From: Leptogorgia sarmentosa
Lineage: Eukaryota
Assembly (NCBI GenBank): GCA_964658305.1
Contig: OZ210885.1
Location: 9,362,001 to 9,426,000, forward strand
Reading direction: 5' to 3'
DNA: 64,000 bases
Each line of letters begins with the position of its first letter. The first letter of the stretch is position 1. Shown in pieces: positions 17,921-64,000 of this stretch. The translations under genes were made by a program, and so were the position numbers. The notes under the pieces were generated by a model. The model saw only the letters and a list, made by a program, of their open reading frames with translations. It had not been told where the DNA came from and ran no database searches.

Positions 17921-18166
17921 GTATAAATATACATATGTCGCTTTACAAATTCAATAAATCTTGCTTGTCTGATTTTTCAAAACTGGGTTACTCATACAGT
18001 ATTTTCAAAGGACATACCAGTCTTTTCAAAGAAACTTCTACTTTCACAAATTTGTAAAACATTAAAATGTCAGAAAGTAATTATGTCTGTACTATTTACA
18101 AAAGCTTTGTGCTTTGGTAGCTAAAATTGTAACACCATTATTTTATGTTTACTTCATAGAACGATA

Positions 18167-18749
18167 ATGATATCAGAGGAAGAACAACATTGGGTTTTAG
18201 TTGGCATTGCCTTTACCAAAGTTCTTGCACCTGCATTGAGGAAAGTTGTCGCCACTGAACTTGGGAAATGGTATCATTCTTTATGCCAACCACCTGATGA
18301 AATTCAAAAGCAAGATTTCGCAGCATACAGAAGGAAGAAATTACCCCCTTCCACACATAACCTACAATATCAGAACATTAACAATAACATCCACAAGCGT
18401 ACTAAATCAGCTTATGATTATGCTGTTAAAGATCCTGTCTCTTTGGCGAAACTATTCGTCACGGACTTTATGGCACATTTCACTGGATTTGATAAAACCA
18501 TGGATATGTCAGCACTTTTGACTATTATCGGCAAGGCAGCACCTTTTGTATCTTCTGGTGCTGCAGCTGAAGCAAACAAAGTTCGGACGGACATCAGAAA
18601 CCCATGGGCTCATTGTAACATCTCTGAATGGAAAGTACATAAGTTTAATGCCTCGTTTCAAGGAATGAAATCTTTGGTCAATTTGTTAAATTTACCAACA
18701 GCTGACGGAAAAATAATTTGTGATGAACTAGATTTCTGGAATAAAACAG
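18167..18749 (+). CDS. Coding exon 1: HEPN-like domain (DZIP3/CXorf38-like) with RxxxxH
   Basis: Acceptor TTCATAG ends 18159, ATG 18167, donor ACAG|GTACTG. Helical sequence with DMSALL and VRTDIRNPWAH. Confidence 0.8.
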
Positions 18750-21700
18750 GTACTGTATTATTAGCATTATTGCCGGAATTTCATCATGCCTTTAAATATG
18801 TTTTGCGCAGATCATTTTTTATCTCCGGTAAGAAAACCCCCATGTGTTGAAAGAATTTCTCTTATTATTCATTTATTATTATTATTATTATTATTATCAT
18901 CCAATTTTATTCATATATTACCATATATACAATTCAATGCGATTCTCAATACGATCAATCGTTGAAATTATATGGGGTCGAACAGGTAAAAAAAATTAAA
19001 TTCTCCAATAGTGTAGCTATACTTTGAAACTTTACATAGAAATCTAGTGTTGAATTGGTGACAGTGATTTATTTTTAGACCTTCATATAAGTGCAGAAGT
19101 TAAATGCCTTTAATACTGTATACAACATGATATACAGTATAGTACAACTAATATATGCTGACATATGAATAAAATCAAAATTTTGACATGAATTAGACTT
19201 CGTAAATCGTACTAATTCCAGTTGGACATTTGTGTTCAAAACTTCAATCATTCAAAAGTCGGGAATGTTTAACGCAATTTTGCCAATTTTTTCATTTTAG
19301 TATTAGGCACGCAAAATTGATAGACTTTTCTCGATAAGGATATAAATGCATGGGTAATACTAAAATATACAAAATTTGAAAACTTTACAGGGTCATATTT
19401 TTCGCATTTTAAAACATTTCTCAACCAGACTTTACATTTTTACTAACTTCGTGATACTCTTTAACGCTGTTGCTCTGGATTGTACTATTTCGAAATTTTT
19501 GCATGTCTATATCATGCAAAAAATCTACTTTACTCAAAACGTCCAACCTATTTGCATTGTTTAGGTAGTGGGTATGACATGTGCTGCTTGCTGATGTTGT
19601 TATCCCCTACCTACTACACTGGCCGCATATTGAAGTTTGCTAGTAACGACGACAGACCATGCTTACTTATCAAATAGTTTGTATGGACAGCAAGGCATGC
19701 TTTTTCATGTATCCTTCGTGCTACGCGCATTAGCAGCGGTATATTTAAGTGTTTGCGATACTCAAGATAAATTTTCTTCATTATTTCCAGACATTCTTGT
19801 TGATGGTCGTCACGCAAAACTAATTGCAGAAAGTGTAGCTGAACTTTGCCGTTGTATCAAAAACTACGATTTGGACGCCACAAAGGTTTGAGGAACTTTT
19901 GATGTTTCATTTAACAGTCGTTGAATAAGTAGGAAGACGCTGTTTAAATTAATATAAGACATGTTTCAAATGCGAGCGAGTGCAAATTTTCAGCGTGGGA
20001 ACGCAATCTGTGCTTTTTTTCGATAATGCTGTTTTTATGAGTTTTGCTTTACCCGTTAAACGTTGCAAGTCAAACATGTGCATACTTTTTTGGGGACACG
20101 TTTGCAATAGAATACTTAGAACGAAGCGTGTACTGATAAATAAAACACACTACATATCAATTACTGATAAATAACATACTCTTTTAGGGGGAAAAAAACT
20201 AACCCAAGGGGCTGGGACATCCCATTAAGCAAAACAATTTAGCCATTCTCATAGGCAAGATTAGGCAAACCTAAATTTTGATAGATAACAATTATTTTTC
20301 CTTGCAAAATTGCTATTGAGGTTCCAACGTTGAACTACAAATTTCTGAAAAGTTCACAAACTAGGAAACTTGCATATCAAATTTCAATAGACCTTATGTA
20401 TAATGTCGTCACAAAAATTTTAGCTCGTATTCGACTTTACATCTGTGTCGACCAAACATTGAAATATTTCGTCCTCACAGTGAGGTAAAAATTATTTGAT
20501 GGTAATTCGAAAATTTTGGGAAAAAAGGGCCAATTTATAAGAGAGGAAAAAATAGGTACGCATAACGTACATGTGGGTAGCCCGTAAAAGATCGGCCAAG
20601 CAATTTCCCTTTCTCTAAAATCCCAACCATTAAAGGGAAATATTGATAAAGCTCAGACGGTTAAGCACACGGGCGTGCGTCGCTGTTCAAACAAACCAAG
20701 TCCACAGAGTTTCCGTCTTCTCTCTTCAGCTAGCCACAATGCGTAGTTTCTGTCCCGAGGATTCTTGACTTGCTCAGTAATTGCCTTCAAGTTCTCCTTT
20801 AGTAATTCTATGTAATTTCGGAATTAACTGCCTAAGCGACTGGCTTCGGTTTTTCACCTTTCCTGGGCGAGAGTTGGATATAACTCCATCGTTTATCGAC
20901 TAGAGCACTCCAACTATAGAACGACTGTCTTTAAACTTCAGGACATCAGACCGTAGTTGATTCTTTTCAGTGTTGGAGCTTAGTTCACCCCACGCTAGTT
21001 ACGCTTCGTCACCTTTTTTTCATTCAGGAACTAACAATTTTACTTTACTCATCTCGCCTAAGATTGTTTTCAGTCACCTCGATACACGCTTTCAATTCCA
21101 ACTCGAATCCTTGTGACCCTGCCCTCTTTACTTGTCTGGACGTCCAAAGCACCACGAACTCTGTCCTCGCCTCATATATATTGTCTCATTAATTTACATA
21201 CTCATCTTAATCTCTAATCTAATAATATACTTAAAAAAAATTCTCGATTCTGATTGGTTGAAAGAAGTGCAATTTTAAGGAAATACAGTACCAAACAAGG
21301 AAATTCAGTGCCAAAAAAAGAAATTCAGTGCAGATTTCTTCAGATGTTTACGCCTTCTGATTGGCTGAGATTATAAAGCTAGCCAATAAGATTAAGCCAT
21401 TTCTGGCGAACAATAGAAAATATGAAATTATTCGAGGATGAAATAATGGCTGCCTCTTTGGGTAGATTCTTTTAGCAACAGACAAATGATAGAAGGGCTT
21501 ACAAATTGTTCGAAAAATGAAAATACCGCCAAAGATATCTAGTCTTGTGGTTGATTGTGCGGATAAAGTGTTGCATTAAAAAGAAAATACAGCGCGAGTA
21601 CAAAATATTCCGCAAGAGGTGTTAGATTATATATTTTGCTCGATTGTTTTTATGCTGAACGAAAACTGTGAATTAAAAAAGAAACGGCGATGAATGTGAA

Positions 21701-24700
21701 CCAGACACTTAAAAGTGATATTAACAGCAGTCGATGTTGACAACCTTTTTATAATACAAGACAGAGATTTCTCTTCGTTCAAGCAAGTGCTAGGTGGACA
21801 AGCAAAACATCTCCGTATATTAGCGGCAGAACAAAGCGAGACAAGTATATTCTATTTAAATTCTCATGCAATTTGGAAAAAACATACACTCATGAGCTTT
21901 TCAAAGACTTCAAATAGCACTCGTCCTTTGGACTCCTGCAATTTTGAATGTCTTTGAAAAACTCACTCGTGCATGTTTTTTCCAAATTGCACTCGAAACC
22001 ATACAATCACCTATACTAATAACGTCAGATTATAACTATTGTTACATCACACACCTTAAGCCGCTTTGTGAAGTTGAGAGTGATTTCAAATTTGTTTCAG
22101 CCCGTCAATTGAATTTACTAAATTAATTTTATCTATTCAGATAAATCCAGTGATGGAGAAACTCGATAACATACAATCCACACTGCTTCGCAAAATTAAA
22201 GAGGTTGAAAGGTCTGCAGCTGAGAACTCAATGGAGCTTAAACGTCTGGCGGAGAAAACAGATGAAATCGAATGTCGTCAGAAAAAGCCGAGGACGGAGC
22301 ATTCAGATTTTGCAGAGAAAAAAGGTAGTGTTTCAATTAACTAGGAAAGATGGGAAACTATTTATGCAAAATATATTATGCAGGAAAATTTACAGAGTAT
22401 CAGGCAGCCATTCAATTTTCAAAATTTGTTCCCCACGAACCTTCCCGGTCTTGAACGTTCTGTTTCTAAGAATTTCTTGTAGGCAAATATCTCGTTAGAG
22501 TAAACGGCAACAGGAATCCAATATGTCTTCTAACACTTCCCAGATTTAGTGATCCAATCCGTTTATTGGCAGTGCAGTACGCGCTGTCGCACTCATCATC
22601 ACTAAAAATGAATTTTAATGTTGGGCGGGTTAACTGCATAGGACACAACCAAATAAAAAACGGTCGTGAAAAGTTGACGCCGCTCAATTGCGACAAGAAT
22701 GCTTAAATGTTGCTGATAGTAGTTAAATGCTTGTTCTTTTGATTTATGTCCTAAAATGCCTCATTATCATTTTGATTTATGATATTGACTTTAATTCAGT
22801 AACAAACATACTAAATACACGAGAACGGGACTGGATCCAATGCACGGTGTCAGCCTGACAAAAATATACAAACTACTAGGGTAACTATTATAATAATTTT
22901 ATTCACGCATTTAAATAGATAAAATTAGAATGACAAGGAGACGTCCTATCTAACGAACATATTAATAAGTACAAGGTGAATCGGGATCGAATGTTGTTGT
23001 GAAAAGTTCCTGATAAGTTTTGTACAAGATTCCAACCTGGGAAAGGTTAATAGAACAGGAAGAGCGTAATCGTATCATACGTTTTATTCAATTGCACTCT
23101 TATGTTAATTTGCATCTACATCTTTCTAGCATGCAAGCATTTTATTCTATATTCAATGGCTACTTTCTACGGGCAAACCCTGCCGACCGTACAGTTCATA
23201 TTTCTTCTCCCCCTCTGGAATAGTTTGTGACAACAAGTTTAATAAATTCATGATAACATGCTTCAACATCTGGCTACAGTTTAGGTATAACGGATAACTA
23301 CATCAATAAACAAAAATTGTTCAGACTAACTACTTGTCCCCCATTCCCCCCTGAAACAATCTTGTAACAACGATCTCACGCCATCTGGTTTGCTGAAAAA
23401 GATCCAGGCAGAATTGTTAACGGGGGAAGCCGGGAAGGGGGGAAATATTAAAACAAATTGAAGAAGATCTGGATAAATTCATGTGTGAATATGAGAAAAA
23501 TATTTGAAGTAGCTAAAGTCTCATTTTGCACGGGAATTGTAGATCCATCCCTGTTTAGTTGTATTCATCCAGCATATTCCGTTTATTTTATATTGTAGTT
23601 GCGTATGGATTACGCAATCTACCTCGTGACATGGTGGAAAGACCATCAGAAGTGAACGACATATTGAAACTACTTACAGAAGGAAATAATCGAGTTGGTG
23701 TGGTCGGGAATCGTAGCGGCGACGTCGTTGGTATCCGTGGTATGGGGGGTCTGGGTAAGACCATCTTAGCTCTGGCTGTCGCTTGGTCTGCCAAAGAATC
23801 TCGTCAGGTAATATGGCTTGATGTTGGAGAAACTCCTGACTGCTTATCACTCATTAACCTCCTCATAAAAGTTCTTGGTGGCGAAGCCTCGTTCACTGAC
23901 ATCCGGGCAGCGCAATCCTGGGTCTCAGCAAACACGGTATGTGTGAATTATTTGAACATTTTGTAATACTCATTGATGCGTTATTACACAAAATCGTTGT
24001 CAAAAGTTACTGGTGATGCAAATAGCGCGTTATATAAACTTCCACTGATTCCGTCATAAGAGGAAAACAGAGAAAGTGATTAGCGTGATGAGATGGATAT
24101 CAGGTTTTTTCGTTGTAAAATAACGAACACATATGTAAGCTTTTTACCACTCACATGCAGTATGCCAATGACAAAGACGAGGATACACTAGGTGAGGGTC
24201 GCCCTTTTAATCAGTGCCATACATAGCCCGATAATGCGCGGGGATCATATTCATGTATATTCGTATTCTTAATGACTTTTTCGAAATCTAGTGTCTTTGA
24301 ACTTTGTAAACGCGGATATATGAATGTGCCTTCTCCAATTATCGATTTGGCTACCCATCTATTGATAATTCTGAAGCAGTGGCAACGTTGCTTCTGCTTC
24401 GACCCAGTTAATTTTACCCAAGAAACTCGAAAAGCATCAGCACAGCGACAGTATATAAAGCAGTTTTCTATGTATTGCAGAGTGACAAAGATTGCTTGGT
24501 GATTCTTGATGATGTTTGGAGTGTAAACCACGCTTCTGTATTTGATCATCTCTCTGGAAAATGCCAATTATTAATAACTACAAGGAATTCTGAAGTTGTT
24601 CGCGGTTTACGAGGTTCTGCTTTGTATAAACTCAATTTTTTAAAACGGACTGGATCTTACAAGCTCTTGTATCAAAGCGCCCAAGTCACCGAGGACGAGC

Positions 24701-27700
24701 AGTCCGAGTTTAGCTCAAACATGCGGCGAATTATAGAGGAAATGTTAAACCATTGTGGCGATCTACCGCTAGCTCTGTCCCTTGTGGGTTCAAGTTTAGC
24801 CGACACTCGCGACGAACAAGACTGGGAAGACGTTTTAAATGACCTCAAAAAAGCAGACTTGGTAAAATTACGTTCAATATATCCCGCCGAAGCTTATCCT
24901 TACGATAACGTCTTAACAGCCATTAACGCCAGCTTTCAACATTTGGACGAAGAAATACGAGAAAAGTTTCTAGATTTCGCTTTATTTCCAGAAGATACGG
25001 ATGTACCATTAGACATTCTTGAGCTGTTTTGGTCTTCCAAAGTAGCCGGAAGAACTTCGTGCAGCCGTCGTGAAGGAAGACGTATACTTGATGAGCTCGA
25101 AAAGAAGTCGATGATTCAACAAGGTAAATGAAGACAGGGTGCATGATAACTAGACAAAAATCTATCGCCACAGTTGGAAACAGCGTGCAATAATTACTAT
25201 AACTGCAAAGTTTAAAGAAGAAATGTCATAAAATGGGAATATCATTGCCAGACATAATTCATTTTGTGTACCATTTTATCAGCACAAAGTAAATTATATC
25301 CATTTCAGACGATAATGTGTATTAACTTACTTCTGCGTCATAAATAGTATGTAAATTGTGCTAAATTTGCATGGGCATAATTTCCCCATTTTATGATTTT
25401 TATTCTTCAAACTTTGCTTTCATACTATTTTCAGCACGCTGTTTGATGATAGCTTGTTGATTTTTGTCTTATTTTTAAACTTTCGCGATCGCTAAATTTG
25501 TCTGTTGCTTTTGCTTCCTGCACCATAATCAAATGAAATTCACGAAAAAGACGAGAGGTTTCTAAAATATTTTTTTACTACAGCTCCTTTTGTGAAAGCT
25601 TTAACATTAGCATTAACTGTCAACAAGTTGTTAGGCTGAACTTTCAATCAAACCAATGTCGACGTCAAACAAGCCTAAGGAAATTAATTTTCAGCTATAA
25701 TCATATGACTTGCTGCCTCATATGTGGGTAAGCCAAATTTCCCCATTCACTTTCCCAATATTTTCAGTGTTTTCCTCTGACATTCCCAGATGAGCAACAA
25801 ATCGAATTGGATAGGAAATTTTTTCATCTCCCTGGGGTATACTGAATCTGAAATATTATAGTACTATAGCCTGACTGCAGGCCCAGAATGCTCTAGTGTC
25901 CTGTACTAAAACGTTTCGAATCACCATATGTGACTATGTTCTCCAATGGCAGAATTTAATTCAGTGCGAAATGGCGCACGATCGACTTCTAGCGAACGCT
26001 TTAATTTGAAATACAAACAGTCAACGATTCTCATTAACATTAAATTGCAAGCATTTCAAAAGAAAGCGATCGCTAACCAAAATTTTGCACTTAATTGAAA
26101 TTCGCCTTATAACGATAATTTTCAGGATCTGATATCCATGGAAAAAAGAGCTACCGTCTCCACGATCTCCTTTTGGGTTTTGCAGGTGCAAAACTAGGAG
26201 GCAAACTAAGTTCTGTCCAGTGTTTGTTCGTGGAGGCACTTCGTGGTCATTGCGAGAACGGTGATTGGGGAAAATTCAAAGGCAACAAGGATTATTATTT
26301 CAAGTACCTGACCCATCACCTTCATTCCTCCGAGCAATTTGATGAACTACATAAACTGTTCTTCAATTTTAACTGGCTTTATGAAAAGGTGAATCAATTC
26401 GATCACCCCTCCTTAATATCAGATTTTCGTTTTCTGGACCCTCCCTCGAAAGAAATCGAACTGCTCAAGACGTCGTTGATGCTGTCTTCGACGGTTATCG
26501 AGAAGAATTTGCATTCTATTGGTCCACAGCTGTTAGGTAATTACTTTATTTTTTTTTTGCTAAATTTTGTTTCACTACCTAAATAATACGATATAATAAG
26601 ATTCCACATTTCTACAAAAGGCTTTTGAAAGCTGGTGTATCAAATTCTTCCGATTGCTTTTTACTTGGTTTCCATTACACTCACTAATATAAAAACCCTT
26701 GTGTTTTCCCCCGACCCCACTACTAATTAACGACTAAGGGTCTTTGCTCGATACGTCGAAACGGCTACCACCACTGCCCAAGTACGCTTGCATGTAGATG
26801 AATGGCAATTGTTTTGGGTCGTTACCACACTATATAACGCGAAGTATTACTTCATGAATGTTATGCCTATCTTTATAAATACTCCATTAGGCATGCTATC
26901 CGAAAACAAAGATTCTCTGTTGTTAACCAACTAGTTCGTATGTATACGCGGTTCTTACATATGATGCGTCTCCATGGGTAATACACGCCCATGATTCACA
27001 CGAAGTATGCATGCGATTGGTCAATTTTAACAGTCACTGTCATTCACCCACACCATATATTATTGGAGATTGGAATCAAATTCATTTAGACATTAAATAA
27101 TCAATAATATTAAGAATTTACAAAACTGTAGGAAGTAACGTTCTGTTGTATTGGAATAAAGTATTTTTTGGTGTTAAGCATGAGATCGGTGCTTTGCGAA
27201 TTCACAGAACTTTAACAGTCTTTCTACTTTTGTTTTGCGAAGCGATGTTTTATGCTTTCTGGCATTGTAAAAAGGGCGTGAATGGACCGCTTACATAATA
27301 GAGAAAATTTTCAAAAACCTCGAAATAATATACAATTCAAAATAACAGCGTTAAAGAGCATTCCAAAGTTAGTACGATTGCAGAGTTTGGTTGCGAAATG
27401 ATGTAAAATGCGAGAAATATACCCCTGTGAAGTTTTCAAAGTTGGTATATTTTTGTATTACGCACGCAGAATTGATACCCAGGGGCGTAAATATGGGAGT
27501 GTGTGTGGGGGGGGGGGGGGTGGTCCACCCCCCCCAAAGTCACTGGCCAGTCGGTCTCAAAATACGTACAACAGGTCTCAAAATACAAAATTACGCAATA
27601 GAAGGATTAAATGCGTTGCTGAGCGAAGACCGACATATTATCTCGAGATCGACTGCATTCATAACAATAAATTATAAAAAGTAAAGTGATTATGCAGTTT

Positions 27701-30700
27701 ACGAATGGTGTTATGCGGACAGGCGTCATTTGGGACCTTAAGATTGCGAGAAAACTGTGACGGCAACACCAACCGGAAGTAACGGGTGAACTAGTTTTTG
27801 CTGACTTTGCAGTAATTTCAAATTGGAAAATTCGGGCACTGATTTTGGGCATAATTCGGGCAAAAATCTGAGGAATAAGGTAATGTCAACAATCCTCCAG
27901 TTGTTCACCTGAACGAGCGTACCAAAAAAGTGGAGTTAGAACTCTGAAATCACCGTTTCCGGCAATCCAGCGGTTGTAAAAGTTCAAAAATTTCTCCCTC
28001 GGCGCCAACCATGGTGGCGCCTCATGACATTCGCTACCCTCAAATTCGGCCCAGCTCATTCAACGTTGCTGTTGCCGTTGAAGTCGCCGTCGTGTAATCT
28101 TAAGGTCTCTAATGGTGTTGTGCGGACAGGCGTTCTAACACCTTCCTTCTAACAGATAACATGCTCTCAAAACGCTGGAAATGCCATTTCCGAGACCAAA
28201 ATTTCAAAATTTTCCCGGGGGGGGCATGCCCCCAGACCGCCCTAGGTTACTCGTGCCTTCGGCAGTCGAATCGGTCTACATTATGATTTACACCCCCCCC
28301 CCCAAACAAAACAAAACAGTTTCAAACTTTGATATTACTTTATGTCCCCTTTATATGAATGTCACTGAAGGGGAACAAACATTTTGTTAAAATAATGAAA
28401 AACTTCCTTTAGAAATTAGAAAAGAACTCATATGATGAACCTATTGTTTTAATAATCAAGAAACAGATATATATAGTATAATCAGATAGGCCCGTTAGTT
28501 GTTCAGTTTTAATATTTTCCCGGTCAATATTTGTCTTCATCTTTAAATGCTATTTTAAATTTTCTGAATTTGTTACGTGCGCTAATACTGTTGTGTATTT
28601 TTCTTTTCCAGGCAGACTGCTATCTTATGAAGAGTTTCCGGGGATAAAGACGCTATTAGAGCAACTCCGTGCAACATGCACGGAGAGTTGCCGTCTTATA
28701 CCGGAATTCTCATGTTTAGATCTTGGAGGCCCTGAGATCTTTCGAAAAACGTTTGATTCAAAAGTATACTCATTAGCGACGTCCACAACCTCATCCACTA
28801 CTCTTGTAATTTGTGGTTTCTGGAATGGTTCAATCACAATCTTTGATCTTGACACAGGTAGGTAACCGTGTGGTAACGTACTATGGATAAACTAATGGCA
28901 AGGTTTGGGGTTTTCATTAGTTTTTTTTCTTTTGACCGATCGTCGGTCCGGAAAAGGGATAAAACACAGATTCAATGCCGCCTCTGCTTGTAATTGTAAT
29001 TATATGTGCAACCATATCCTCACTCACATTTGAAAGAATTATCAGTTCTGAGTTATGCAAGTTGAGCGGCTGCGCGATATACGTGTATAAAAAACTGATC
29101 AAATTTGAAATCGCTCTCAATTTCGCAAAGCCACTCGGGTGACGTTATTAATTAACAAAACTTTGCAGTGCAAAAGTTTTGAAAAAGAAACGTTGTACTA
29201 GCCTTCAGCTTCAATTGTTTTTGTTAGCGCTGATAATGAACTAAATATAGATAAAAAGTTTAGTAAAGTACATGTTTGACTTACCTGCTGTCACATGTAC
29301 AGTACTTGATTACATCGGAAATTTACGGCGCTATAATCTCATGGAGCTCACTGGCCTCAGGGCTCAGGGCTCGTCCCATTATGCTTCGCATCACTCTAGG
29401 TAATGTGGCTATGCTTTGCTTCAGTTATATATCGGTTGTTCTCAGATTACTTACGTGCTTCTCTTTTCGGGACCGGCAAATAATTGATCCGCTAGCCAAC
29501 GATAAATCGCGGTATTTCGTGCGACGTCGTCCAATAATTGATAGTAGGTACCTTAAGATGTAAAACGCCACAAACTCGACAACGGGGTTTAAATTTCAGC
29601 TTGAAAATGAGTGCTGACCTTTTTATGCTTTAAATAGATGTTGGATTTTTTTCAAGAAACATTTACACAGGTTCAGCTAAAGCAATGCGATCGTTGCTGC
29701 CGAGTCAACTTGAAGTTACAGCTCTCACGTTGTAATCAGCCTTCACGTTGCTTTGAAGACGTTATAATGCTTGCCTTAACGTTGCGTTGATAACAAAAAA
29801 GCCGTTGATACCACAATTTATGCTTGGTTTTTGTTCAGCATAAAAATTTGTTTGTTCGGAAAGCTCGTCGTCGAGTTGGTCACGTTGTAGATCTTAAGGT
29901 CCCTAATCCTCTGCTACAAAATTGCTATGAAACCATTTTTGAACATATCCACAATGCAGTTGTCTTTCTATTAGGAATGACAGAAATGTCTGGTGATAGT
30001 TACAGTTTGATAAAATAAAAATAAACCACTGTATACACGCGTCATATTTCGCGCAAATAAGTAAGTATTAATAATATCACGCCATCCAAGTCTCATTTCG
30101 TTACACGGATAATTATCCAAATTTTTTAGACCTGCAGCCACTGGCTCGGTTTTTGAGAAAAGTTTCAGTTTTGGAAGCAGACAAATTCAATTATATTCAT
30201 TGAAATGAGAATATAGTTAATATGCAGTTGATATGGGTGAGGGAACAAAGGTTTACACTCAAAGTAATTGATAATTCATTAGAAAATTAGCCAATTATGT
30301 ACTGTAGTCGTCGTCATATGATGATGTTTGAAATTTGGATTAGATTCTGGAAGAGACATGTTCATCCATATAGTAAAATATTCAGTCATTTCTTGAACGG
30401 GATCAATGTTTACTGGGTAAAAAAATTTAAAAATCTCACAAATGGCTGGAGGGAATGCTTTTGTCTGCAACATATTAATAAAAGTATAAAAATCAATTCG
30501 GACAGAGTGACATATTATTTCTTCTAAACAATAAAACATACAATTATTGAGAAATCGTGTGCATAAAATTAATGGATATATGCCAATTTTAAAATGTGAA
30601 AGTTCAGTAATTACAAATACAAGTAGGACAACATTCCTGTGCAATCATTGGTATTCGCTGTATAGAATATTTCCTGTTCATAGCTTCATGCATGTTCTAC

Positions 30701-33700
30701 CGCCTGTTCTACCGCCAACATCAGCCACTAAATTTTAAACACTAGTAAATATATTATTATAAGTTTCAGTAAATTGTTCGGCATTGACCGTTACTCTACC
30801 ACTTTAGTTATCGAGGCAACAGGGGCCGGTAGCGAGTCTTACCCAAGCGTTCAAGTTGGCTCGATACCTATATCTATGGACTTGCACAACAAAGATGAGA
30901 GCATACTTTTATGAAATCCCAAGAAGTAACGAATGAGAACACACGCCTGTAAAACACGTCACAGTAAATTCCGCAAAATTACAGTTATTTTGTTTTTAGT
31001 ATTGAAGATCGTTTCGGTGTTTGTCTATCGCTTACATTGCTGTTTAAAGTACCTATATCAGGGTCAGGGAAATGACTTATTTAATATGTAGTTCAGGTGA
31101 TTTTAAGAACATTTGCAATATATTTGATAAGACGAAAATTGGATCTTCCTGTACTTTTCGGACCTCAAAGTTGGTAATTTTCAGTAATTTTAGCGCTTGA
31201 CCGTGAGATACAATTACTGGTAACTAGTTATGGGATGTGACGTAGAAAGAGAACACATGCGTTGACAACAATAGGGCTTTATAGTAAAAACAGCAACATT
31301 GAACACTGTATCTTCGAAAATAAATATTTTTTCTTACTGCTCTAAACGTTTATGGGCTTAAAATGCCACACAGGTGTGCAGTTTATGGATGTTCGAATGT
31401 TACCAGTTCAGACGAAGGAATATCGCTGCACGTTATTCCTTTTGCGAATGATGATCGACCAGAGGCCAAAAAACGAAGGAAGAAATGGGTCGATTTTGTT
31501 CGAAGAAGGCGAGTAAACTTTGAACCATCTGCCTCTTTTTCATCAACCTCCTTCAAAGATATGTTCCAGGCATTTTAATGCAGGAGATTTTACTCGGCGT
31601 TTCGATGTTCGCTTGACTGGCGATAAAGCGAAATTGAAAGCCATACTAAAGAGCGACGAATTCGGGATTTGTGTATATCCAACCATTTCTTTGCCAGATT
31701 GCACAGATCCAACTTCCTCTACGACAAGTTCTGCCTTTAACGCTTCTCCACGCAACATTTGCAATCGGTTCGTCTTGGTACGGTTGCAAGCTTTGCCATC
31801 GTTCTTCGCTTGCTCGCATTGCATATTCCGTTATGGAAAACCTATCCGAGTCTAGTTGGCTGTCAAAATTGTCGGAAAAACTTGACGACATCTTCTCACA
31901 GGAACTTTAACCGAAAAGTCTATATTTCAAAGAGGTTCGAGCGCTATTTCCTCTCAAACGCTTTGTTTTCCTATGGCATTTATACTTTGCATATTTGACG
32001 TGTTCTCCTTTTTACGTCACTTCCGTCGGTAATGTCAATTAGTTACCAGGTACTTTGAAAAAATTACCAACTTTGAGGTCCGAAAAGTACAGGAAGATCA
32101 AATTTTCGTCTTACCAAATATATTGCAAATGTTCTTAAAATCACCTGAACTACATAAATAAGTCATTTCCCTGACCCTGATATAGGCACTTTAAGTTGCT
32201 ATACGGACGTAATAGTAACAATGGAAGTTAGCGGTGTAAACAGAGTGTAGCTGATGGGTTAGTTAATGTAGTTACTTGTCTCAATCATTTATTTTATCGC
32301 CGCAATGTTTTGAAAAATACTCCCAATGTAGTAACGATGGGAGTGAAAATTACCTATTACACCATTTTATATACGTGCTATCTTATTTTATAAACAGGTA
32401 GAGAAGTTCAACAACTACTGGGACATTCTGAGAGAGTTAGCTGTTTGGCTGTGTCACAAAGTGGAACAATACTAGCGTCGGGGTCGTGGGACCGAAGTAC
32501 AATCCTTTGGAGAATGGATAATTATGAACAGCTTTTTGTGTTCCAAGGGGAGAGTGCAGTTAATGCTCTGGATTTCAGTGCAGATAATCAGCGAGTGTTT
32601 ATTGGAACATACGATGGTAAGCATCTTGAACACAAATCAAACAAGGATATCAAAATGTTCTTCAGAATAGGTAAACGAAAATTTGCATAAACGTTTTCTC
32701 GACTTCCGCTCTGCTTAAAAGTGCGCGAGTTTCGATAAGAAATAAGATTTTGCCTACGTGTACGGATTTAACGGTTCTGAAGGAACGCCAGCAACGATGC
32801 CATTGGAGAAAAAATTAAATCCTTTTCATACTATGTTTGTCAAATAACTCCGCAAATAATCATATTTTCGGAAATATGTTACTCCGCCGGTACCAAATTG
32901 AATATTGGAATACTTTTATTAAATTAAAATAATTATTTTTTCTTCAAATAAAAATACTTGAAAGTACGTTCACAAAATGTTTGTTTTACGTTGCAATTTC
33001 AGCGGCGTAAATCTCCAGTGTCGGCCCTAGGTTGAACTGTTGTGGATGGCCTCTTTATTATACCTCTTAGCTTCACATTTTTACTATGCTAACTCTACGA
33101 AATATTCTCCTGAATTCTGCATATGATATGCATTTTAATTCTGCTATTTCTTATCGAGCATATTATAGCTATTTAACATCTCTTCTGCTTCAATTATACC
33201 CAAAAGGCAAAAACGTTCCGTAAAAAGAAGCACACTAAAATAAGTTCCTATAAAGCAGAGACAATGACAACAGTAAAAGTTTGACTGTGATATACAACTA
33301 TTAATATACATCCAAGCACAATTTAAAAGGCGACAAAATTGTTTCAGCTAGCTACTGAATGATATCAAACATTTTGTTAACTTCGAACTTTTTTGCATCT
33401 CCAGTTTCAATCAAAATTATTTGAATCAAAATTATTTGAATTTCACATTAGCCACGGCCCTGAAGAAACCTCTTCCCAGGGCCCCCGGCCAGGTTGGGCC
33501 CCTTGTAGTTACGCCACTGTGTACATCGCTATTTACTAAAAAAATTGGCTTCACATTTTAATACAAGAACGTTTATGAAGCGGATTGATGCATATCGTTT
33601 CAGTTCTTGGGTTTCACGTAACGTTCCATATTTGAGTGGGTATACACTCTAAATAGCGACGCAGTCATCACAGTGAGTTAAATATTCACTGTATGTATTC

Positions 33701-48700: not shown

Positions 48701-51700
48701 GTAGAAATCAGCCAACGTCAATGGGGTCAGCGTGTATACATAAAGATCTACTACGTTCTTTCGTAGATCTTTCGTTTCAACTTCCTTTTTCAAATTGAGA
48801 TGAGATTACTTCCCTCATTGTTTGAATTTGAAAATTAGACGCCTAAATCGAGCCTAACTAGTCAAATTTTCAAATTTGAAAATAAGTATAGAAACAAAAA
48901 TCCATCGCTACAATGGATAAAAGTGTGTCAAAATTAATTAGCATAACTGCAATGATTGGGAACAATAAAAAACATATTATGGCCATTCAAATCAAAGATC
49001 GTACAATGTACGTACCATTTATCAGGTGAAAGTGATTAAATTTCGGATGAAATAGGCGTGATTTACGGCCGTTTTCCATTGCAGTCGCTTTGCCCGCACG
49101 GGCAGAGCAAACATGTTTCAACTTTTGCTATGGGTGTCTAATCTGAGCGTTCTCTGTCTAATTTTGCACGCGCGGACACGCTTCGAAGTTGAACTACGTT
49201 CAACTTTCTTGGCGTGCCCGCGCGACGGATTTTTGACGAAGTTAAAGTTGTTCGCTCAGCCCGCGCGGGCAAAACGACTGTAATGGAAAACGGCCTTTAT
49301 TCCAGTATACTAGTCTTTTATTCACAACAGTGAATGACTTATTTTTGCATTTTCGATATCAGCGATGCATTTTCCTACCTGGATTTGAATAAAATTTCTA
49401 TTGCTACACCTATAAAGATTACTTGTCGTCTGAAGGATATTTTTCAATGATTGGCAGGCTACACCGCTGAAGCGTTGCATACTTGAATACTTCAAATAAA
49501 AATTTTACTTCCTTCATGCAGGTCACCCTGACGACTCGATAGTTACAGCAATTGACATCACATCAAATGGTAAATTTGCTCTGTCTGGAAGCAGTTCGGG
49601 AACATTGTCGCTGGTCGACATAGAGCGTTCTAAAATAGTTCAATTCGCAAACACCGAATCTGGAGTCGCCATACGTTTTGTCTGCTTATTAAGTGATGAT
49701 GTCCGTTTCGTTTTTGTTGACGAGGTAAACAGAATCGAACTTAGAACTTTTAATGATATCGAGGCCAGTATGAAATTGGGTCAACCAGACGTTAAAGTCA
49801 CTTGCATTACTGCTCTTGGTTCAAACTATGCATTGCTTGGTTGTGATGACGGAGAACTGTTATGGTTTCATCTTAACAATAAGTCGCAGTTGAAGTTCCC
49901 AGCACACGAGGTTGCCATTTCTCAAGTTAAAGGCGAGCTAGGAGGACATGATCGTTCTCTTCACTTTGCATCGGGGTCTATCGGTGGGTCTGTGAAGCTT
50001 TGGAATGTTGAAGAAAACGTGCCGACGTTAATATGGTCACATGACAACATTTGTTCTGATTCCATTTCCGAGTTAGAATTCGTGCACTGCTCCGATGATA
50101 TCATAATTGCTTCTGGCGACGAGGTATGTATATCATTATCCAAACGAGATTGTCAAACACGTTATTTTTGGCCGTGCTACTTGTTGCATAGGTTGAGCTG
50201 CAATTCAAATTTCGTGATGTCTCTTTACCGAACAAGATTGTCAAATGTTATTTTTAGGACTTAATACTTGTTGTAGTTGAGCTGCACTTCAAATTTCATT
50301 TCTTGCAGTACATGAAAAATAACACATACCATGCTCATAAGTTGTGAAGCGCTTCTACAGTGAATTAACTTTGTTCCAAGCATTATCTTAGAAATCGGGA
50401 GACAAATTTGGAAGAAAGCCCCTAGTTGAGCCCTTGACTGGAAGAACACAGCCAAATGAATGGTGGTGTTTAACTCGTGTGCATGTTTGTTTTTTCGCTG
50501 ATCGATGTTTTTTGCACTGTGGATAATGTAAAAAAAAGAAAAAACATGGTGTGCACGTCATTGTTACCGATTCCATGGCGAGAATCGCATTAAGATTAGA
50601 TCTGTCCGTATGGTTAAGCACGCTACCTGAGCGTGACTATTATGAGCGAATAGTCAACTCGGACCAATTGTGAAATATTCCCTAAACTAATAAAAGCGCG
50701 AAAAAGTTCTGAAAACACGCGTTCAGTTAGCCTAGGTAGCTTAATATACTCTGCAGTCTCGTACATCTGCATGGACTACATTTATTCAAAAATAGGTGCA
50801 CAAGTGTACATGTATTTGCGCTCAAGCTACCGGCGCGGTGATACAAACTTGTCAATGCGCGACTTGTTGGGTTTGTCCCAAATATTTGTCACCTTGCAAG
50901 TATAAAATTGTAATCCGCTAGCAAATAGCGCGACTGTTTTTCCGAAAGTACTGATTTCTGAAACGCGAGGTTGGGCGTTGAAGACTTGATATAAGCTTTC
51001 ATGAATATATCGCATTCCAAATATCAAATTGCAATGGAATTCAACTGGGCGACATACGATATGGCATATTTTAAATACCTCCTTCAAATTTATTGATTTA
51101 AACATTCGTTCTTGTAGACTACACTTTGCAATGTATCGGTACAAACATTGCAACATTGTTGTTGGTGCGAAGACAATATTTTACGACTTTTTATTATACA
51201 GTCGCAAATATTAATAACCCCCAGTCAGTAAAACTGATTATTATACATTTAAAATTTATTCTCGTTCCTGATTGGTCAGAAAGCACCGGCTAATTCTCAG
51301 TATTCGGTATTTATTACGTATTTTTCGCCGATGACGTCATCAGCGTCCAATAATTATTTTTTTGGATCGAACTTGCATCCAAAAAAAAATTATTGGACTC
51401 TCTCGTGCCCAAGCCCCAGCGCTGTCAAAAGCTTGAAGCTAAAAGCGCGCGAAAAAACAAACAAACAAGCAATGGCCTGCAGTAGATTATACTTCACAAA
51501 CTCCGGTCGAAATATATGGGAAAACATATGGTAAAGCTTGCCTTACCGTGCTCTAACTCACGTTTCAACGCTTCCGGAACCGGAAGAGAACAAGAAAGAA
51601 AAGAGAAAGGTCACATGACCCCGGGTATAAATACGCCAACCCCCCGGTGCACCGTCGGCTTTTTTCCTCGTGCTCACTCACGTAAGTAGACTCATACGGT

Positions 51701-60700: not shown

Positions 60701-61249
60701 AACATTGTGAATACAGTCATATCTTATTTTGATATCATTGTGGTCAATTCCGTTGATTGTCGAAACTTCCAAGAACTGTACGAATTAAACATTAATTACA
60801 CAGGCGTGTACTAACTATTTTTATTAATTACACCGTTCCGAGCCGGCGTTGATTTTAAAAACAACCAAAACAACGCAGTATTAATTGCATATATGTTTGT
60901 TGATCAGAAATACCACTCGTAATCGGAAGTCGTTCATCTTATTTTGCTGAGAAAATAACCAATGTTGTATTAAGCAGTAATTTATTATTTTGACAGGTTG
61001 AGCGGATAAATGCCAAAGGAATTGTGCATCGTTACAAATCAGATGTGTGGTGTAGAATTGAAACAATTCGCGTGGTCCAGAACTTCCTCTTTGGTGTTCT
61101 TTCTAACAAGTGGGTAGTTGATAATGGAGCTGGAGAGCGAACATCGGTCAGAAAGTGGAAACTGAACGAAAAGCGGTACGACGAGAATTCTGAATTTACT
61201 AAAAGAGTTTTAAGGGTGAACAATTCTGACAGCCATGTGGCTGTTTTAG
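18167..61249 (+). CDS. Multi-exon APAF-1-like STAND protein: HEPN-like N-terminus, coiled coil, NB-ARC, helical domain, WD40 repeats (3' end not found in window)
   Basis: Exons 18167-18749, 19791-19885, 22141-22324, 23599-23936, 24481-25123, 26126-26536, 28612-28857, 32398-32616, 36512-36721, 39508-39748, 42837-43075, 44859-44965, 46984-47386, 49522-50123, 60997-61249. All GT-AG with matching phases, 4774 nt with no stop seen. Motifs: RNPWAH, GMGGLGKT, LVILDDVW, LITTRN, GDLPLAL, LHD, repeated GH...WD-type units. Confidence 0.85.
19791..19885 (+). CDS. Coding exon 2 (linker helix)
   Basis: TTTCCAG|AC...AAG|GTTTGA, phase 1 to 0. DILVDGRHAKLIAESVAELCRCIKNYDLDATK. Confidence 0.65.
21225..22020 (+). 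mobile_element. Degenerate Crypton-like non-autonomous element
   Basis: CTGATTGG boxes, decayed ORF start ATGGCTGCC...TCGAAAAATGAAAATACCGCCAAA, and a long terminal hairpin at about 21868-21991 (GCAATTTGGAAAAAACAT...ATGTTTTTTCCAAATTGC). Confidence 0.4.
22141..22324 (+). CDS. Coding exon 3 (coiled coil)
   Basis: CTATTCAG|ATA...AAAG|GTAGTG, phase 0 to 1. Heptad-like MEKLDNIQSTLLRKIKEVERSAAENSMELKRLAEKTDEIE. Confidence 0.75.
23599..23936 (+). CDS. Coding exon 4: NB-ARC P-loop
   Basis: VVGIRGMGGLGKTILA Walker A. TGTAG acceptor, ACG|GTATGT donor. Confidence 0.92.
24481..25123 (+). CDS. Coding exon 5: NB-ARC Walker B, sensor 1, GxP motif and winged helix
   Basis: CLVILDDVW, LLITTRN, CGDLPLALSLVG, FLDFALFPED...LELFW. 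Confidence 0.92.
26126..26536 (+). CDS. Coding exon 6: LHD motif and APAF-1-like helical domain
   Basis: YRLHDLL, DYYFKYLTHHL, LFFNFNWLYEKV, PQLLG. TTTCAG acceptor, TTAG|GTAA donor. Confidence 0.9.
28612..28857 (+). CDS. Coding exon 7: end of helical domain and first WD40 repeat
   Basis: GRLL...LIPEFSCLDLGG...VICGFWNGSITIFDLDTG, phase 1 to 1. Confidence 0.85.
31048..32190 (+). mobile_element. Internally deleted Kolobok DNA transposon with THAP and probable KolX remnants
   Basis: TTAA TSD at 31044-31047 and 32191-32194. TIRs of about 130 bp begin AGT(A/G)CCTATATCAGGGTCAGGG. Frameshifted THAP from 31363 (MPHRCAVYGCSN...KW...KICSRHF...VYPTI). Convergent ORF 31891-31646 has PYQDEPIA. Confidence 0.85.
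32398..32616 (+). CDS. Coding exon 8: WD40
   Basis: LLGHSERVSCLAVSQSGTILASGSWDRSTILWRM. Confidence 0.9.
33973..35370. mobile_element. 1.4-kb non-autonomous TIR element
   Basis: About 85-bp TIRs (GACGATGAGATAGATGG...CTGTAATAA) flanked by the direct repeat GAATAAC (5, 7 or 9 bp depending on where the ends are placed). Each TIR has an internal hairpin. Confidence 0.8.
36512..36721 (+). CDS. Coding exon 9: WD40
   Basis: DGQFIATVGYRDKTIKLWKADT...CHTDWVTCV. Confidence 0.88.
39508..39748 (+). CDS. Coding exon 10: WD40
   Basis: LVSASHDGTIKIWDL...IISGDDEGSVRLWCL...EGHTADI. Confidence 0.9.
40407..42718. mobile_element. Non-autonomous CACTA/EnSpm-type element with CACTG termini
   Basis: Ends CACTGTTATTTTAGGGG and CCCCTAAAATAACAGTG with 2-bp TSD TG. 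Repeated GGAGTTAAAATAACTCC motifs near both ends. Confidence 0.82.
42837..43075 (+). CDS. Coding exon 11: WD40
   Basis: ALTASWDGSIRVWNL...DHSTDVTDITIARDGPICVSASNDGTFKVWNL. Confidence 0.9.
43787..44076. mobile_element. 290-bp palindromic MITE inside an older inverted-repeat element (about 43417-44297)
   Basis: AGGAGATCGCT.GATGGTATACTCC and GGAGTATACCATCTAGCGATCTCCT bound a near-perfect palindrome. Degenerate outer inverted repeats at about 43420-43540 and 44170-44297. Confidence 0.8.
44859..44965 (+). CDS. Coding exon 12: WD40 (not in the ORF track)
   Basis: AATAG|GT...AAAG|GTATGG. GDLEWAKHVAVSADGRYVVSLSKEVLRTNPTKSSIK joins VWNL of the next exon in phase. Confidence 0.85.
46984..47386 (+). 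CDS. Coding exon 13: WD40
   Basis: VWNLSDG...VRFSSDGLHVIIGCKDNHVFIWDW. Confidence 0.88.
48341..48605. mobile_element. Harbinger-like palindromic MITE
   Basis: Ends AGGGCCATTTATACGA and TCGTATAAATGGCCCT, 3-bp flanks TAT/TAT, internal AGCCGCGGCT palindromes. Confidence 0.8.
49066..49296. mobile_element. Harbinger-like MITE
   Basis: Ends GGCCGTTTTCCATT and AATGGAAAACGGCC with TTA TSD. Confidence 0.8.
49522..50123 (+). CDS. Coding exon 14: WD40
   Basis: GHPDDSIVTAIDITSNGKFALSGSSSG...AHEVAISQV...FASGSIGGSVKLWNV. Donor GAG|GTATGT. Confidence 0.88.
51626..51633 (+). promoter_or_regulatory. TATA-like box in the DIRS left ITR, mirrored in the right ITR
   Basis: TATAAATA 130 bp upstream of the gag ATG. 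Reverse complement near 58724-58731. Confidence 0.45.
51756..52975 (+). pseudogene. DIRS ORF1 (Gag-like), frameshifted near 52352
   Basis: ORF 51756-52403 and ORF 52475-52975 are joined by a second-frame stretch PETDACVAPLLDKQILD...LLNSAGPL. C-terminal IRRKKIL...LFGEDL is typical of DIRS ORF1. Confidence 0.8.
52918..56885 (+). pseudogene. DIRS ORF2: reverse transcriptase, RNase H and adenine-methyltransferase-like domain, interrupted by a 1.9-kb insertion
   Basis: FYSRMFLVPKKGGSFRPVIDL, LDLKDAY, LPFGL, YLDD, SDASKMGWG, HINVLEL, DNTTA, VDLFAS, YAFPPF. Removing 53443-55331 restores FIWQDQVYQF in frame. Confidence 0.92.
53443..55324. mobile_element. 1.88-kb fold-back element with ~800-bp TIRs inserted in the DIRS RT
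   Basis: Ends CAACAAGGGGGAATTTCG and CGAAATTCCCCCTTGTTG, TSD GCAGGAC (boundary ambiguous, 5-11 bp). Mirrored identical ORFs at 53782+ and 54985-. Confidence 0.92.
55332..57676 (+). CDS. DIRS ORF3 tyrosine recombinase (recognisable domain from about 56690), overlapping ORF2
   Basis: RRSTNKAYDSAWGKW, LLMLLALISPERSS, LCPLGCLEAY, FKAHSTRAAS, GDW, FRQFYYKP: R, HxxR, W and Y catalytic residues present. Confidence 0.92.
57689..58373 (-). mobile_element. Crypton-like non-autonomous element in the DIRS 3' region
   Basis: 23-bp inverted repeat at 57801-57823 and 58351-58373, terminal hairpin 57693-57800, CTGATTGG box and ATGGCG start on the minus strand. Confidence 0.6.
60997..61249 (+). CDS. Probable coding exon 15 (degenerate beta-propeller)
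   Basis: TTTTGACAG|GTT is in phase 0 with exon 14. VERINAKGIVHRYKSDVWCRIETIRVV...SVRKWKL...HVAVLG, donor TTAG|GTAATT. Confidence 0.65.
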
Positions 61250-63862: not shown

Positions 63863-64000
63863 ACGCCCGCACCTATTACTAATTTCTATGAGAGCATAAA
63901 CGCGCCTCGTAACAGCCACTATAAATATAAAACATGGCTATCAACCCAAAATTGATCACAAAAATTGCCTCGCGTAACATTGCCTTAACAGATTTAAAAA

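What the first reader, a model, noticed from the sequence alone, without database searches (positions are those of the whole stretch)
18167..61249. APAF-1-like STAND receptor with a HEPN ribonuclease-type domain instead of a CARD
Seen: a 15-exon, phase-consistent frame joining an N-terminal helical domain with RNPWAH (RxxxxH) to a coiled coil, a complete NB-ARC (GMGGLGKT, LDDVW, ITTR, GDLPL, LHD), an APAF-1-like helical domain and many WD40 repeats. No death-fold domain is visible. Established: HEPN RxxxxH domains are dimerisation-activated RNases (RNase L/Ire1 KEN, Cas13, Csm6), STAND ATPases oligomerise on ligand binding, and prokaryotic antiviral STANDs couple repeat sensors to nuclease effectors. 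DZIP3-type HEPN domains fused to NACHT receptors are known in cnidarians, so the NB-ARC/WD40 apoptosome-type chassis is the less familiar part. Inference: a ligand-gated RNA-cleaving immune or cell-death receptor.
Basis: partly seen in the sequence, partly recalled or inferred. Interest (0 to 1): 0.9.

Follow-up and report, generated by a model that had tools for sequence, protein, structure and literature searches.

The report
Coral apoptosome-like receptor with RNase head
A gene, likely from a soft coral, joins the sensor and switch of an Apaf-1-like cell-death receptor to a likely HEPN ribonuclease domain where its close relatives carry death-fold domains, so it is predicted to cut RNA itself when triggered; HEPN receptors built on other switch domains are already known in corals.

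Summary
The gene is real: 15 GT-AG exons give 1,591 codons without a stop. Contigs from two public runs join several exons, and two homologous proteins share the architecture. The last ~105 residues are not in the window. Exon 1 has no Pfam hit itself but belongs to a large family (373 clusters) with RxxxxH in 204 of 219 rows. Relatives match HEPN_Swt1 and DUF4559/CXorf38 weakly; the fold match is weak (Z 7.2). It is probably HEPN, not DZIP3-type. Two corrections: the closest relatives of the NB-ARC/WD40 body carry DED or death domains, not CARD, so this is a death-fold-to-HEPN swap on an Apaf-1-like paralogue. And HEPN-STAND-repeat receptors are in print for corals: 112 of 180 WD40 rows in one survey are HEPN-NACHT-WD40, while all 5 NB-ARC-WD40 rows carry DEATH. 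I found no report of this combination, and the scan had not noted it elsewhere. RNase activity, dimerisation and ligand are untested. Verdict: new variant of a known kind.

The parts
18160..18749 (+). Exon 1 as seen here (acceptor at 18160, first ATG at 18167): the whole likely HEPN domain, residues 1-194, RNPWAH at 144-149; ends in phase 1
   Evidence: family conservation; model pLDDT 96.3; loose ends at 18159 and 18749 in X2 and X5
19791..19885 (+). Exon 2, residues 195-226, helical linker
   Evidence: loose ends match this exon's start (8 letters) and exon 3's start (17 letters); 89% nucleotide identity to L001 over 76 bases
22141..22324 (+). Exon 3, residues 227-287, predicted coiled coil; ends in phase 1
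   Evidence: heptad pattern; GT..AG joint to exon 4 in X2 and X5
23599..23936 (+). Exon 4, residues 288-400, NB-ARC start with Walker A (GMGGLGKT)
   Evidence: PF00931 E 9.9e-6
24481..25123 (+). Exon 5, residues 401-614, Walker B (LDDVW), sensor-1 (ITTR), GLPL-type motif (GDLPL), start of winged helix
   Evidence: PF00931 E 2.4e-19, weak WHD hits; GT..AG joint to exon 6 in X2 and X5
26126..26536 (+). Exon 6, residues 615-751, MHD-type motif (LHD) and APAF-1 helical domain
   Evidence: PF17908 E 1.1e-10; loose ends to exon 7
28612..28857 (+). Exon 7, residues 752-833, end of helical domain and first propeller blade
32398..32616 (+). Exon 8, WD40 repeats
   Evidence: PF00400; L001 block
36512..36721 (+). 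Exon 9, WD40 repeats
   Evidence: PF00400; L001 block
39508..39748 (+). Exon 10, WD40 repeats
   Evidence: PF00400; L001 block
42837..43075 (+). Exon 11, WD40 repeats
   Evidence: PF00400; L001 block
44859..44965 (+). Exon 12, WD40-like repeat
   Evidence: tblastn with P0157 and P0159, weak (E 0.055, 0.024); phase fit
46984..47386 (+). Exon 13, WD40 repeats
   Evidence: PF00400; tblastn
49522..50123 (+). Exon 14, WD40 repeats
   Evidence: PF00400; tblastn
60997..61249 (+). Exon 15, residues 1508-1591, divergent propeller part; not the last exon
   Evidence: 43% identity to P0159 residues 1512-1604, E 1e-10; remainder not found in 61200-64000

Best explanation
This is a spliced gene for an Apaf-1-like STAND receptor whose usual death-fold head is replaced by a likely HEPN ribonuclease on a predicted coiled-coil stalk, and it is predicted to cut RNA when a ligand makes it oligomerise. 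Shown: the exon chain, the intact NB-ARC motifs, the WD40 region, the conserved RNxxxH motif, and that close relatives of the body carry DED or death domains while close relatives of the head sit on unrelated bodies. Inferred from STAND and HEPN biology: the WD40 propellers hold an ADP-bound monomer shut; an unknown cytosolic ligand (pathogen-derived or a damage signal) opens it; ATP exchange builds an apoptosome-like wheel; the stalks pair neighbouring HEPN heads so that two R144/H149 motifs form one composite active site; RNA decay then blocks translation or kills the cell without caspases.
For: Architecture. P0001 (58% identity over residues 2-1137) and P0159 (53% over 1-1591) share it. L001 is intronless, with an in-frame stop upstream of its ATG, so that homolog has no extra N-terminal domain. 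HEPN: R..H in 204 of 219 rows and R[NDH]xxxH in 200 of 219. In the model the motif closes a long helix (132-148; pLDDT 96.3). 15 of 61 relatives hit HEPN_Swt1 and 14 of 61 hit DUF4559 at E<=0.01; two pass the DUF4559 cut-off. Atlas scores are 0.97 to clusters where 11% of members carry DUF4559 or HEPN_DZIP3. The top structural row is the yeast Swt1 C-terminal domain (Z 7.2, rmsd 3.4, 119 aligned). Effector behaviour: among 45 longer relatives the domain sits with NB-ARC-TPR, NACHT-LRR, nSTAND3-ankyrin, Roc-COR, AIG1 GTPase and kinase-KEN modules. Swap: the core is 63-65% identical to DED-headed P0156-P0158, which lack the HEPN, while the head is 58-59% identical to P0002/P0004/P0005, whose cores match at only 22-24%. 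The three HEPN-headed cores group at 94/87 inside a 99/97 clade with DED- and DD-headed ones. Precedent: HEPN catalysis needs a dimer (10.64898/2026.05.28.728550, passages); bacterial Apaf-1 orthologues carry a direct enzyme head (PMC13581612, passages).
Against: No activity data. The window's own domain has no Pfam hit. Among 9 relatives rescanned, none reaches the HEPN_Swt1 cut-off (best 25.9 against 27.5). Foldseek gave no match at E<=0.001, and Z 7.2 is within the range for unrelated helical bundles, tied with acyl-CoA dehydrogenases at 6.9 and 6.5. Atlas recognition was 2081, under the tool's 2300 mark. N72, N74, D113 and W155 are as conserved as R144 and H149, so the motif does not stand out alone, and the rows were not dereplicated. 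The closest solved fold, Swt1's HEPN, is described as inactive (PMC3710099, passages). The exon 1-2 junction in reads rests on 8 loose letters; the exon 4-5 junction and those after exon 7 were not seen in reads of this species. The 94/87 node is below the tool's threshold for strong support.
Confidence: 0.6

Rival explanations
1. The head is HEPN-like but works as an adaptor or RNA-binding module. Like the DED pair it replaced, it would recruit partner proteins that carry the same domain (for example kinase-KEN or GTPase fusions) by head-to-head pairing, and the signal would be passed on rather than executed by this protein.
For: It occupies the position of a protein-interaction domain. The same domain heads many unrelated proteins, some with their own effector, such as P0100 (kinase plus KEN RNase) and P0008 (a second, DZIP3-type HEPN). 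Swt1's HEPN, the top fold match, is described as inactive (PMC3710099, passages).
Against: The full R-N-x3-H motif is kept in 200 of 219 rows as R[NDH]xxxH, whereas inactive HEPNs lose it (PMC3710099, passages). Pairing and catalysis are not exclusive.
Confidence: 0.2
2. The head is not HEPN. It is another all-helical domain family in which RNxWxH is a structural helix cap, and the protein is an Apaf-1-like receptor with an effector of a different kind.
For: No Pfam hit for the window domain; no Foldseek match; top Z only 7.2, with bromodomains and acyl-CoA dehydrogenases close behind; a long insert (residues 40-110) has few regular elements.
Against: Two HEPN-superfamily profiles hit 15 and 14 of 61 relatives, and the Swt1 matches cover the motif-bearing end of the profile. 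The Atlas neighbours are DUF4559/HEPN_DZIP3 clusters. The best row in both structural runs is a HEPN-bearing protein (Swt1; Csm6).
Confidence: 0.1
3. This copy is truncated or disabled. The 7.4 kb retroelement lying in the same direction in intron 14 would end transcription early, leaving a short-sensor isoform or a decaying paralogue in a fast-turnover family.
For: Element at about 51483-58916 in a 10.9 kb intron. The last ~105 residues are not in the window. The homolog L001 stops after the exon-11 equivalent.
Against: All 15 exons are open with canonical splice sites, and exon 15 still matches P0159 at 43%. Exons 1-7 appear in spliced-looking contigs.
Confidence: 0.1

Closest known systems
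Coral DZIP3-like HEPN-NACHT-WD40/LRR and HEPN-NB-ARC-TPR receptors (PMC10236652 text passages and Additional file 17; PMC8260672 passages; bivalve counterparts PMC9646362 passages)
   Same: Three-part design: N-terminal HEPN with Rx4H, STAND switch, repeat sensor; expanded families; proposed RNase effector role.
   Different: The head here does not match PF18738. The switch is an Apaf-1-type NB-ARC with APAF1_C and WD40. In that survey's 180 WD40 rows, 112 are HEPN-NACHT and the 5 NB-ARC rows all carry DEATH (counted by hand from the rows). That survey covers five stony corals only.
CXorf38 (DUF4559) family of Swt1-like HEPN domains (PMC3710099, passages and Table 1)
   Same: Weak profile matches among relatives, RN-x3-H motif, an Asp about 30 residues before the Arg (D113 here; D134 proposed in CXorf38, 10.64898/2026.05.28.728550; the equivalence is my inference), and reported fusions to NACHT, ankyrin and death folds in cnidarians.
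   Different: No conserved cysteine pairs for the inserted Zn ribbon (only C150 is conserved); no hit for the window domain itself; fusion to an Apaf-1-type NB-ARC-WD40 is not among the passages read.
Apaf-1 and invertebrate Apaf-1-like paralogues (PMC2246300 passages; PMC10959488 passages)
   Same: NB-ARC with all switch motifs, winged helix, APAF1_C, WD40 sensor. Apaf-1 chains are the only NB-ARC proteins among the 60 listed solved-structure matches to P0001. N-terminal replacement by DED, death, TIR or double CARD is already described.
   Different: No CARD or other death fold. The head is a predicted enzyme rather than an interaction domain. The WD40 region is longer (about 870 residues judged by P0159). 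Orthology to the CARD-bearing Apaf-1 clade was not tested.
Prokaryotic antiviral STANDs (Avs) and bacterial Apaf-1 orthologues with a caspase-like head (PMC13581612, passages)
   Same: Direct enzyme head on an oligomerising STAND. The next-best named matches to this NB-ARC core after anthozoans are cyanobacterial, as that paper reports for Apaf-1.
   Different: Animal, multi-exon; RNase-type head; no close prokaryotic relative of the head in GTDB genomes by pattern scan (close relatives only).
RNase L / Ire1 (KEN HEPN; PMC3710099 passages, activation mechanism recalled)
   Same: Ligand-driven dimerisation of a HEPN-superfamily RNase as an animal defence output.
   Different: Switch is a STAND ATPase, not a kinase; HEPN is N-terminal; ligand unknown.

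Membership tests
HEPN superfamily | Rx4-6H motif with a polar residue (D/N/H) after R, conserved in the family | tested here: met
   RNPWAH at 144-149; R..H 204 of 219, R[NDH]xxxH 200 of 219 rows (not dereplicated); 128 of 137 in the first set
HEPN superfamily | All-helical HEPN fold with the motif at the end of a core helix | tested here: inconclusive
   Confident helical model, motif closes helix 132-148; top row Swt1 C-terminal domain Z 7.2, rmsd 3.4, 119 aligned, not clear of unrelated bundles; Csm6 Z 5.9
HEPN superfamily | Profile match to a curated HEPN family | tested here: inconclusive
   Window domain: none. Relatives: HEPN_Swt1 15 of 61, below cut-off in those rescanned; DUF4559 14 of 61, two above cut-off
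HEPN superfamily | Dimer forming a composite active site | not tested
HEPN superfamily | Metal-independent RNase activity dependent on R and H | not testable with these tools
   Needs a bench assay
DZIP3/hRUL138-like HEPN (PF18738) | Match to PF18738 | tested here: not met
   No hit on the window domain; the single hit among 61 relatives is a second, downstream domain of P0008 at 248-308
CXorf38 (DUF4559) HEPN | Zn ribbon inserted into the HEPN domain | tested here: not met
   No conserved cysteine pairs; only C150 reaches 60% conservation
NB-ARC / AP-ATPase STAND | Walker A, Walker B, sensor-1, GLPL and MHD motifs; NB-ARC profile | tested here: met
Apaf-1 proper | Winged helix, APAF-1 helical domain and WD40 propellers after NB-ARC | tested here: met
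   PF17908 E 1.1e-10, weak WHD, PF00400 on six exons
Apaf-1 proper | N-terminal CARD | tested here: not met
   No death-fold hit on exons 1 and 3 or on residues 1-290 against a DED pair; homolog L001 has an in-frame stop before its ATG; the window's unseen 5' exon is not excluded as coding
Apaf-1 proper | Orthology with the CARD-NB-ARC-WD40 clade of vertebrates | not tested
   No vertebrate sequence was among the stored proteins used for the tree
Apaf-1 proper | Cytochrome c-triggered oligomerisation | not testable with these tools
   Needs a bench assay

The most novel reading that the evidence does not exclude
An RNase apoptosome: octocorals have rebuilt an Apaf-1-family wheel into a caspase-independent executioner that degrades RNA directly, by swapping its DED pair for a mobile, so far unmodelled HEPN cassette that also arms NACHT, TPR-type NB-ARC, nSTAND3, Roc-COR, AIG1 and kinase receptors. 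It would be an animal counterpart of bacterial Apaf-1 orthologues and Avs systems with direct enzyme heads.
Probability: 0.45. Interest if true: 0.8.

Novelty: new variant of a known kind. Interest (0 to 1): 0.58.

Why it matters
Animal Apaf-1-family proteins described in the papers read here signal through interaction domains that recruit caspases. A natural pair of close paralogues, one DED-headed and one HEPN-headed with cores about 64% identical, is a clean system to test whether an animal STAND oligomer can switch on an RNase directly. That idea has been proposed from architectures since 2013 for many invertebrate HEPN-NLRs; I found no experimental test in the papers read. The head also defines a large family that Pfam misses, so domain surveys of coral immunity likely undercount these receptors.

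Tried and rejected
No whole genome is held for this window, so paralogues and the true CARD-Apaf-1 of this species could not be searched. No RNA holder listed: none of the 6 runs found is on record as RNA; X2 and X5 were judged spliced only from their GT..AG joints, and they hold 0.33-0.42 of the words, so they may be other alleles, paralogues or a close relative. Read support for exons 11-15 was not obtained. Foldseek found nothing at E<=0.001; a profile search of solved structures gave only chance helical hits. The 5' exon was not found upstream by exact or fuzzy search. The last ~105 residues were not found in 61200-64000 (no hit below E 0.3). No close prokaryotic relative of the head in genome contigs (close relatives only). 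Phrase searches across table cells gave nothing, so all 180 WD40 rows were read instead. The one supplement held for PMC3710099 is only 4,325 characters and had none of the terms, so its full architecture lists were not seen and might include this combination; supplements of the bioRxiv preprint were not seen. Rejected: DZIP3-type head (no PF18738 match); 'CARD replaced' (nearest relatives have DED/DD); chance exon chain (homologs align across 1-1591). The scan's earlier notes gave one unrelated protist case and nothing by sequence or place. Tree: 26 of the 120 listed core relatives plus the window, 94 left out, midpoint root for drawing only, no one-clade test run.
Full report
1. The observation. 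The window is animal DNA with no N; the closest named relatives of both halves of the gene are from the octocorals Dendronephthya gigantea and Xenia, so the source is likely an octocoral. No whole genome is held. A search over AG and GT sites near my approximate borders gave a 15-exon chain of 1,591 codons without a stop: 18167-18749, 19791-19885, 22141-22324, 23599-23936, 24481-25123, 26126-26536, 28612-28857, 32398-32616, 36512-36721, 39508-39748, 42837-43075, 44859-44965, 46984-47386, 49522-50123, 60997-61249. All 14 introns are GT-AG. Pfam confirms NB-ARC, APAF1_C and WD40, and finds nothing on exon 1.

2. Is the head really joined to the body? Four runs were laid on 18000-27000. Contigs of X2 and X5 (two samples, one study, kind not on record) show GT..AG joints for exons 3-4 and 5-6. 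They have loose ends that match the start of exon 2 (8 letters, both runs), exon 3 (17 letters, X5) and exon 7 (both runs). The exon 4-5 junction was not among the rows shown. Independent support comes from homologs. P0001 matches the model at 58% over residues 2-1137. Its 4,084-base contig L001 is intronless, its matching blocks begin and end at the window's exon borders, and it has an in-frame stop before its ATG. P0159 (1,709 aa) matches at 53% over residues 1-1591, including exon 15. The gene is incomplete in the window at both ends: a 5' exon is implied by loose ends before 18160 but was not found, and about 105 C-terminal residues are missing. I have no read evidence for exons 8-15 in this species.

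3. What is the head? It belongs to a large family: 373 clusters at 50% identity with E<=0.001, 198 at E<=1e-10. With 243 stored proteins given, 219 aligned rows cover the motif; 204 have R..H and 200 have R[NDH]xxxH (rows not dereplicated). N72, N74, D113, S115 and W155 are conserved about as well. Of 61 aligned members, 15 hit HEPN_Swt1 and 14 hit DUF4559, the CXorf38 family (name link recalled), at E<=0.01. In a rescan of 9 of them none reached the Swt1 cut-off and two passed the DUF4559 cut-off. The one HEPN_DZIP3 hit is a separate downstream domain. The ESM Atlas gives 0.97 to mollusc-rich clusters where 11% of members carry DUF4559 or HEPN_DZIP3, with a recognition value below the tool's mark. 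AlphaFold2 gives a confident helical model (pLDDT 96.3) with the motif closing helix 132-148. Foldseek finds nothing. The wide structural search ranks the yeast Swt1 C-terminal domain first at Z 7.2, tied with unrelated bundles; the second look ranks Csm6 first at Z 5.9. No single line is strong; together I put HEPN at about 0.9. It is neither DZIP3-type nor CXorf38 proper (no Zn-ribbon cysteines).

4. The head is a mobile cassette. Among 45 longer relatives it sits with NB-ARC-TPR, NACHT-LRR, NACHT or NB-ARC with a beta-helix and MYND finger, nSTAND3-ankyrin, Roc-COR, an AIG1 GTPase, a kinase-KEN module and a GIY-YIG domain; only P0001 showed WD40. The domain is encoded by one exon. Several further hits share a contig length, which suggests clustered copies (inference).

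5. The body is an Apaf-1-like paralogue that normally carries death folds. Searching with the NB-ARC core of P0001 gave 861 hits, 120 listed. The best are anthozoan where named, then mostly bacterial, with cyanobacteria first. Of the 119 other than P0001, only P0159 carries the HEPN. P0158 has two DEDs; P0156, P0157 and P0160 match that DED region well and the Nematostella protein P0163 only weakly (E 0.008); Xenia P0161 has two death domains. The window's core is 63-65% identical to DED-headed P0156-P0158, while its head is 58-59% identical to NB-ARC-TPR proteins whose cores match at 22-24%. In a tree of 27 cores the three HEPN-headed ones group at 94/87 within a 99/97 clade of DED- and DD-headed ones (94 of 120 listed hits left out, midpoint root, no vertebrate Apaf-1). 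A FastTree of 28 heads joins them with the TPR-type heads at 1.0. The likeliest history is one replacement of a DED pair by the HEPN-coiled-coil cassette within octocorals, at the phase-1 intron just before the NB-ARC, where similarity to the paralogues begins; the exon-shuffling step is inference.

6. Mechanism. Best explanation (0.6): ligand binding to the propellers releases the NB-ARC switch, the wheel pairs the heads through the coiled coils, and paired R144/H149 motifs cut RNA, stopping translation or killing the cell without caspases. The parts are shown; ligand, oligomer, dimer and cleavage are inferred. Rivals: adaptor or RNA-binding head (0.2), non-HEPN head (0.1), truncated copy (0.1).

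7. What is known. PMC3710099 (passages and Table 1 rows; the one supplement held was uninformative) reports CXorf38- and DZIP3-family HEPNs fused to NACHT, ankyrin, TPR and death folds in cnidarians and proposes RNA degradation in defence or apoptosis. PMC8260672 (passages) counts 17-83 DZIP3-HEPN-NACHT proteins per anthozoan, 83 in D. gigantea. PMC10236652 (passages; Additional file 17: 30 of 323 HEPN rows and all 180 WD40 rows seen) lists HEPN-NB-ARC-TPR and HEPN-NACHT-WD40; 112 of 180 WD40 rows are HEPN-NACHT and all 5 NB-ARC-WD40 rows carry DEATH. PMC9646362 (passages) shows the like in pearl oyster. PMC2246300 and PMC10959488 (passages) describe Apaf-1-like paralogues with DED, death or TIR heads. 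PMC13581612 (passages) reports bacterial Apaf-1 orthologues with a caspase-like head, closest in cyanobacteria. PMC8195603 (passages) lists HEPN among variable effectors of marine invertebrate immune proteins. The preprint 10.64898/2026.05.28.728550 (passages) treats CXorf38 activity as still predicted. Seven searches (HEPN with STAND/DZIP3/cnidarian, NB-ARC/WD40/coral, CXorf38, octocoral, Apaf-1, and others) showed no paper describing HEPN on an Apaf-1-type NB-ARC-WD40; the library lacks most subscription papers.

8. Verdict. Observation confirmed; interpretation partly supported. It works like a HEPN-armed STAND receptor, a known kind. It is not an Apaf-1 in the strict sense (no CARD) and its head is not DZIP3-type. 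What is new is the apoptosome-type body, the traceable swap from DED to HEPN, and a head family that Pfam misses. New variant of a known kind; interest 0.58.

Noticed in passing
window 51483-58916: DIRS-like tyrosine-recombinase retroelement in intron 14, same strand as the gene: inverted termini (51 and 169 nt arms, 96-98%), reverse transcriptase (PF00078) and integrase-family (PF00589) frames.
   Followed up: partly
window 53442-55325: A 1.9 kb foldback element with about 800 nt arms (583+67+149 nt, 97-99% complementary) and a 284 nt centre interrupts the retroelement's reverse transcriptase frame.
   Followed up: partly
window 31363-31575: THAP zinc-finger fragment (PF05485) in intron 7, likely a transposon remnant.
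   Followed up: no
window 14591-14797: MADF domain fragment (PF10545) upstream of the gene, inside a locally duplicated stretch, likely from a transposon.
   Followed up: no
window 18159-18160: An unseen 5' exon is spliced to the acceptor at 18160 in contigs of X2 and X5; the 30 loose letters from X5 are open in frame, so a short N-terminal extension is possible.
   Followed up: partly
protein P0100: The same HEPN-like head and a coiled coil are fused to a kinase plus KEN (RNase L-type) module, giving a protein with two predicted RNase domains.
   Followed up: no
L001 1-4084 and L002 1-1388: The homologous intronless contig L001 ends its frame right after the exon-11 equivalent, and in L002 the head exon reads on to a stop about 20 codons later; short-sensor or head-only isoforms are possible but unproven.
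   Followed up: partly
proteins P0002, P0004, P0005: Octocoral receptors with this head on NB-ARC/AAA_16, TPR, a right-handed beta-helix and a MYND finger; NCBI lists the two Dendronephthya ones as uncharacterised.
   Followed up: partly
window 18388: A 3-base in-frame insertion in the head exon is common in contigs of X1, X2 and X5, one of many differences that point to alleles or paralogues.
   Followed up: no
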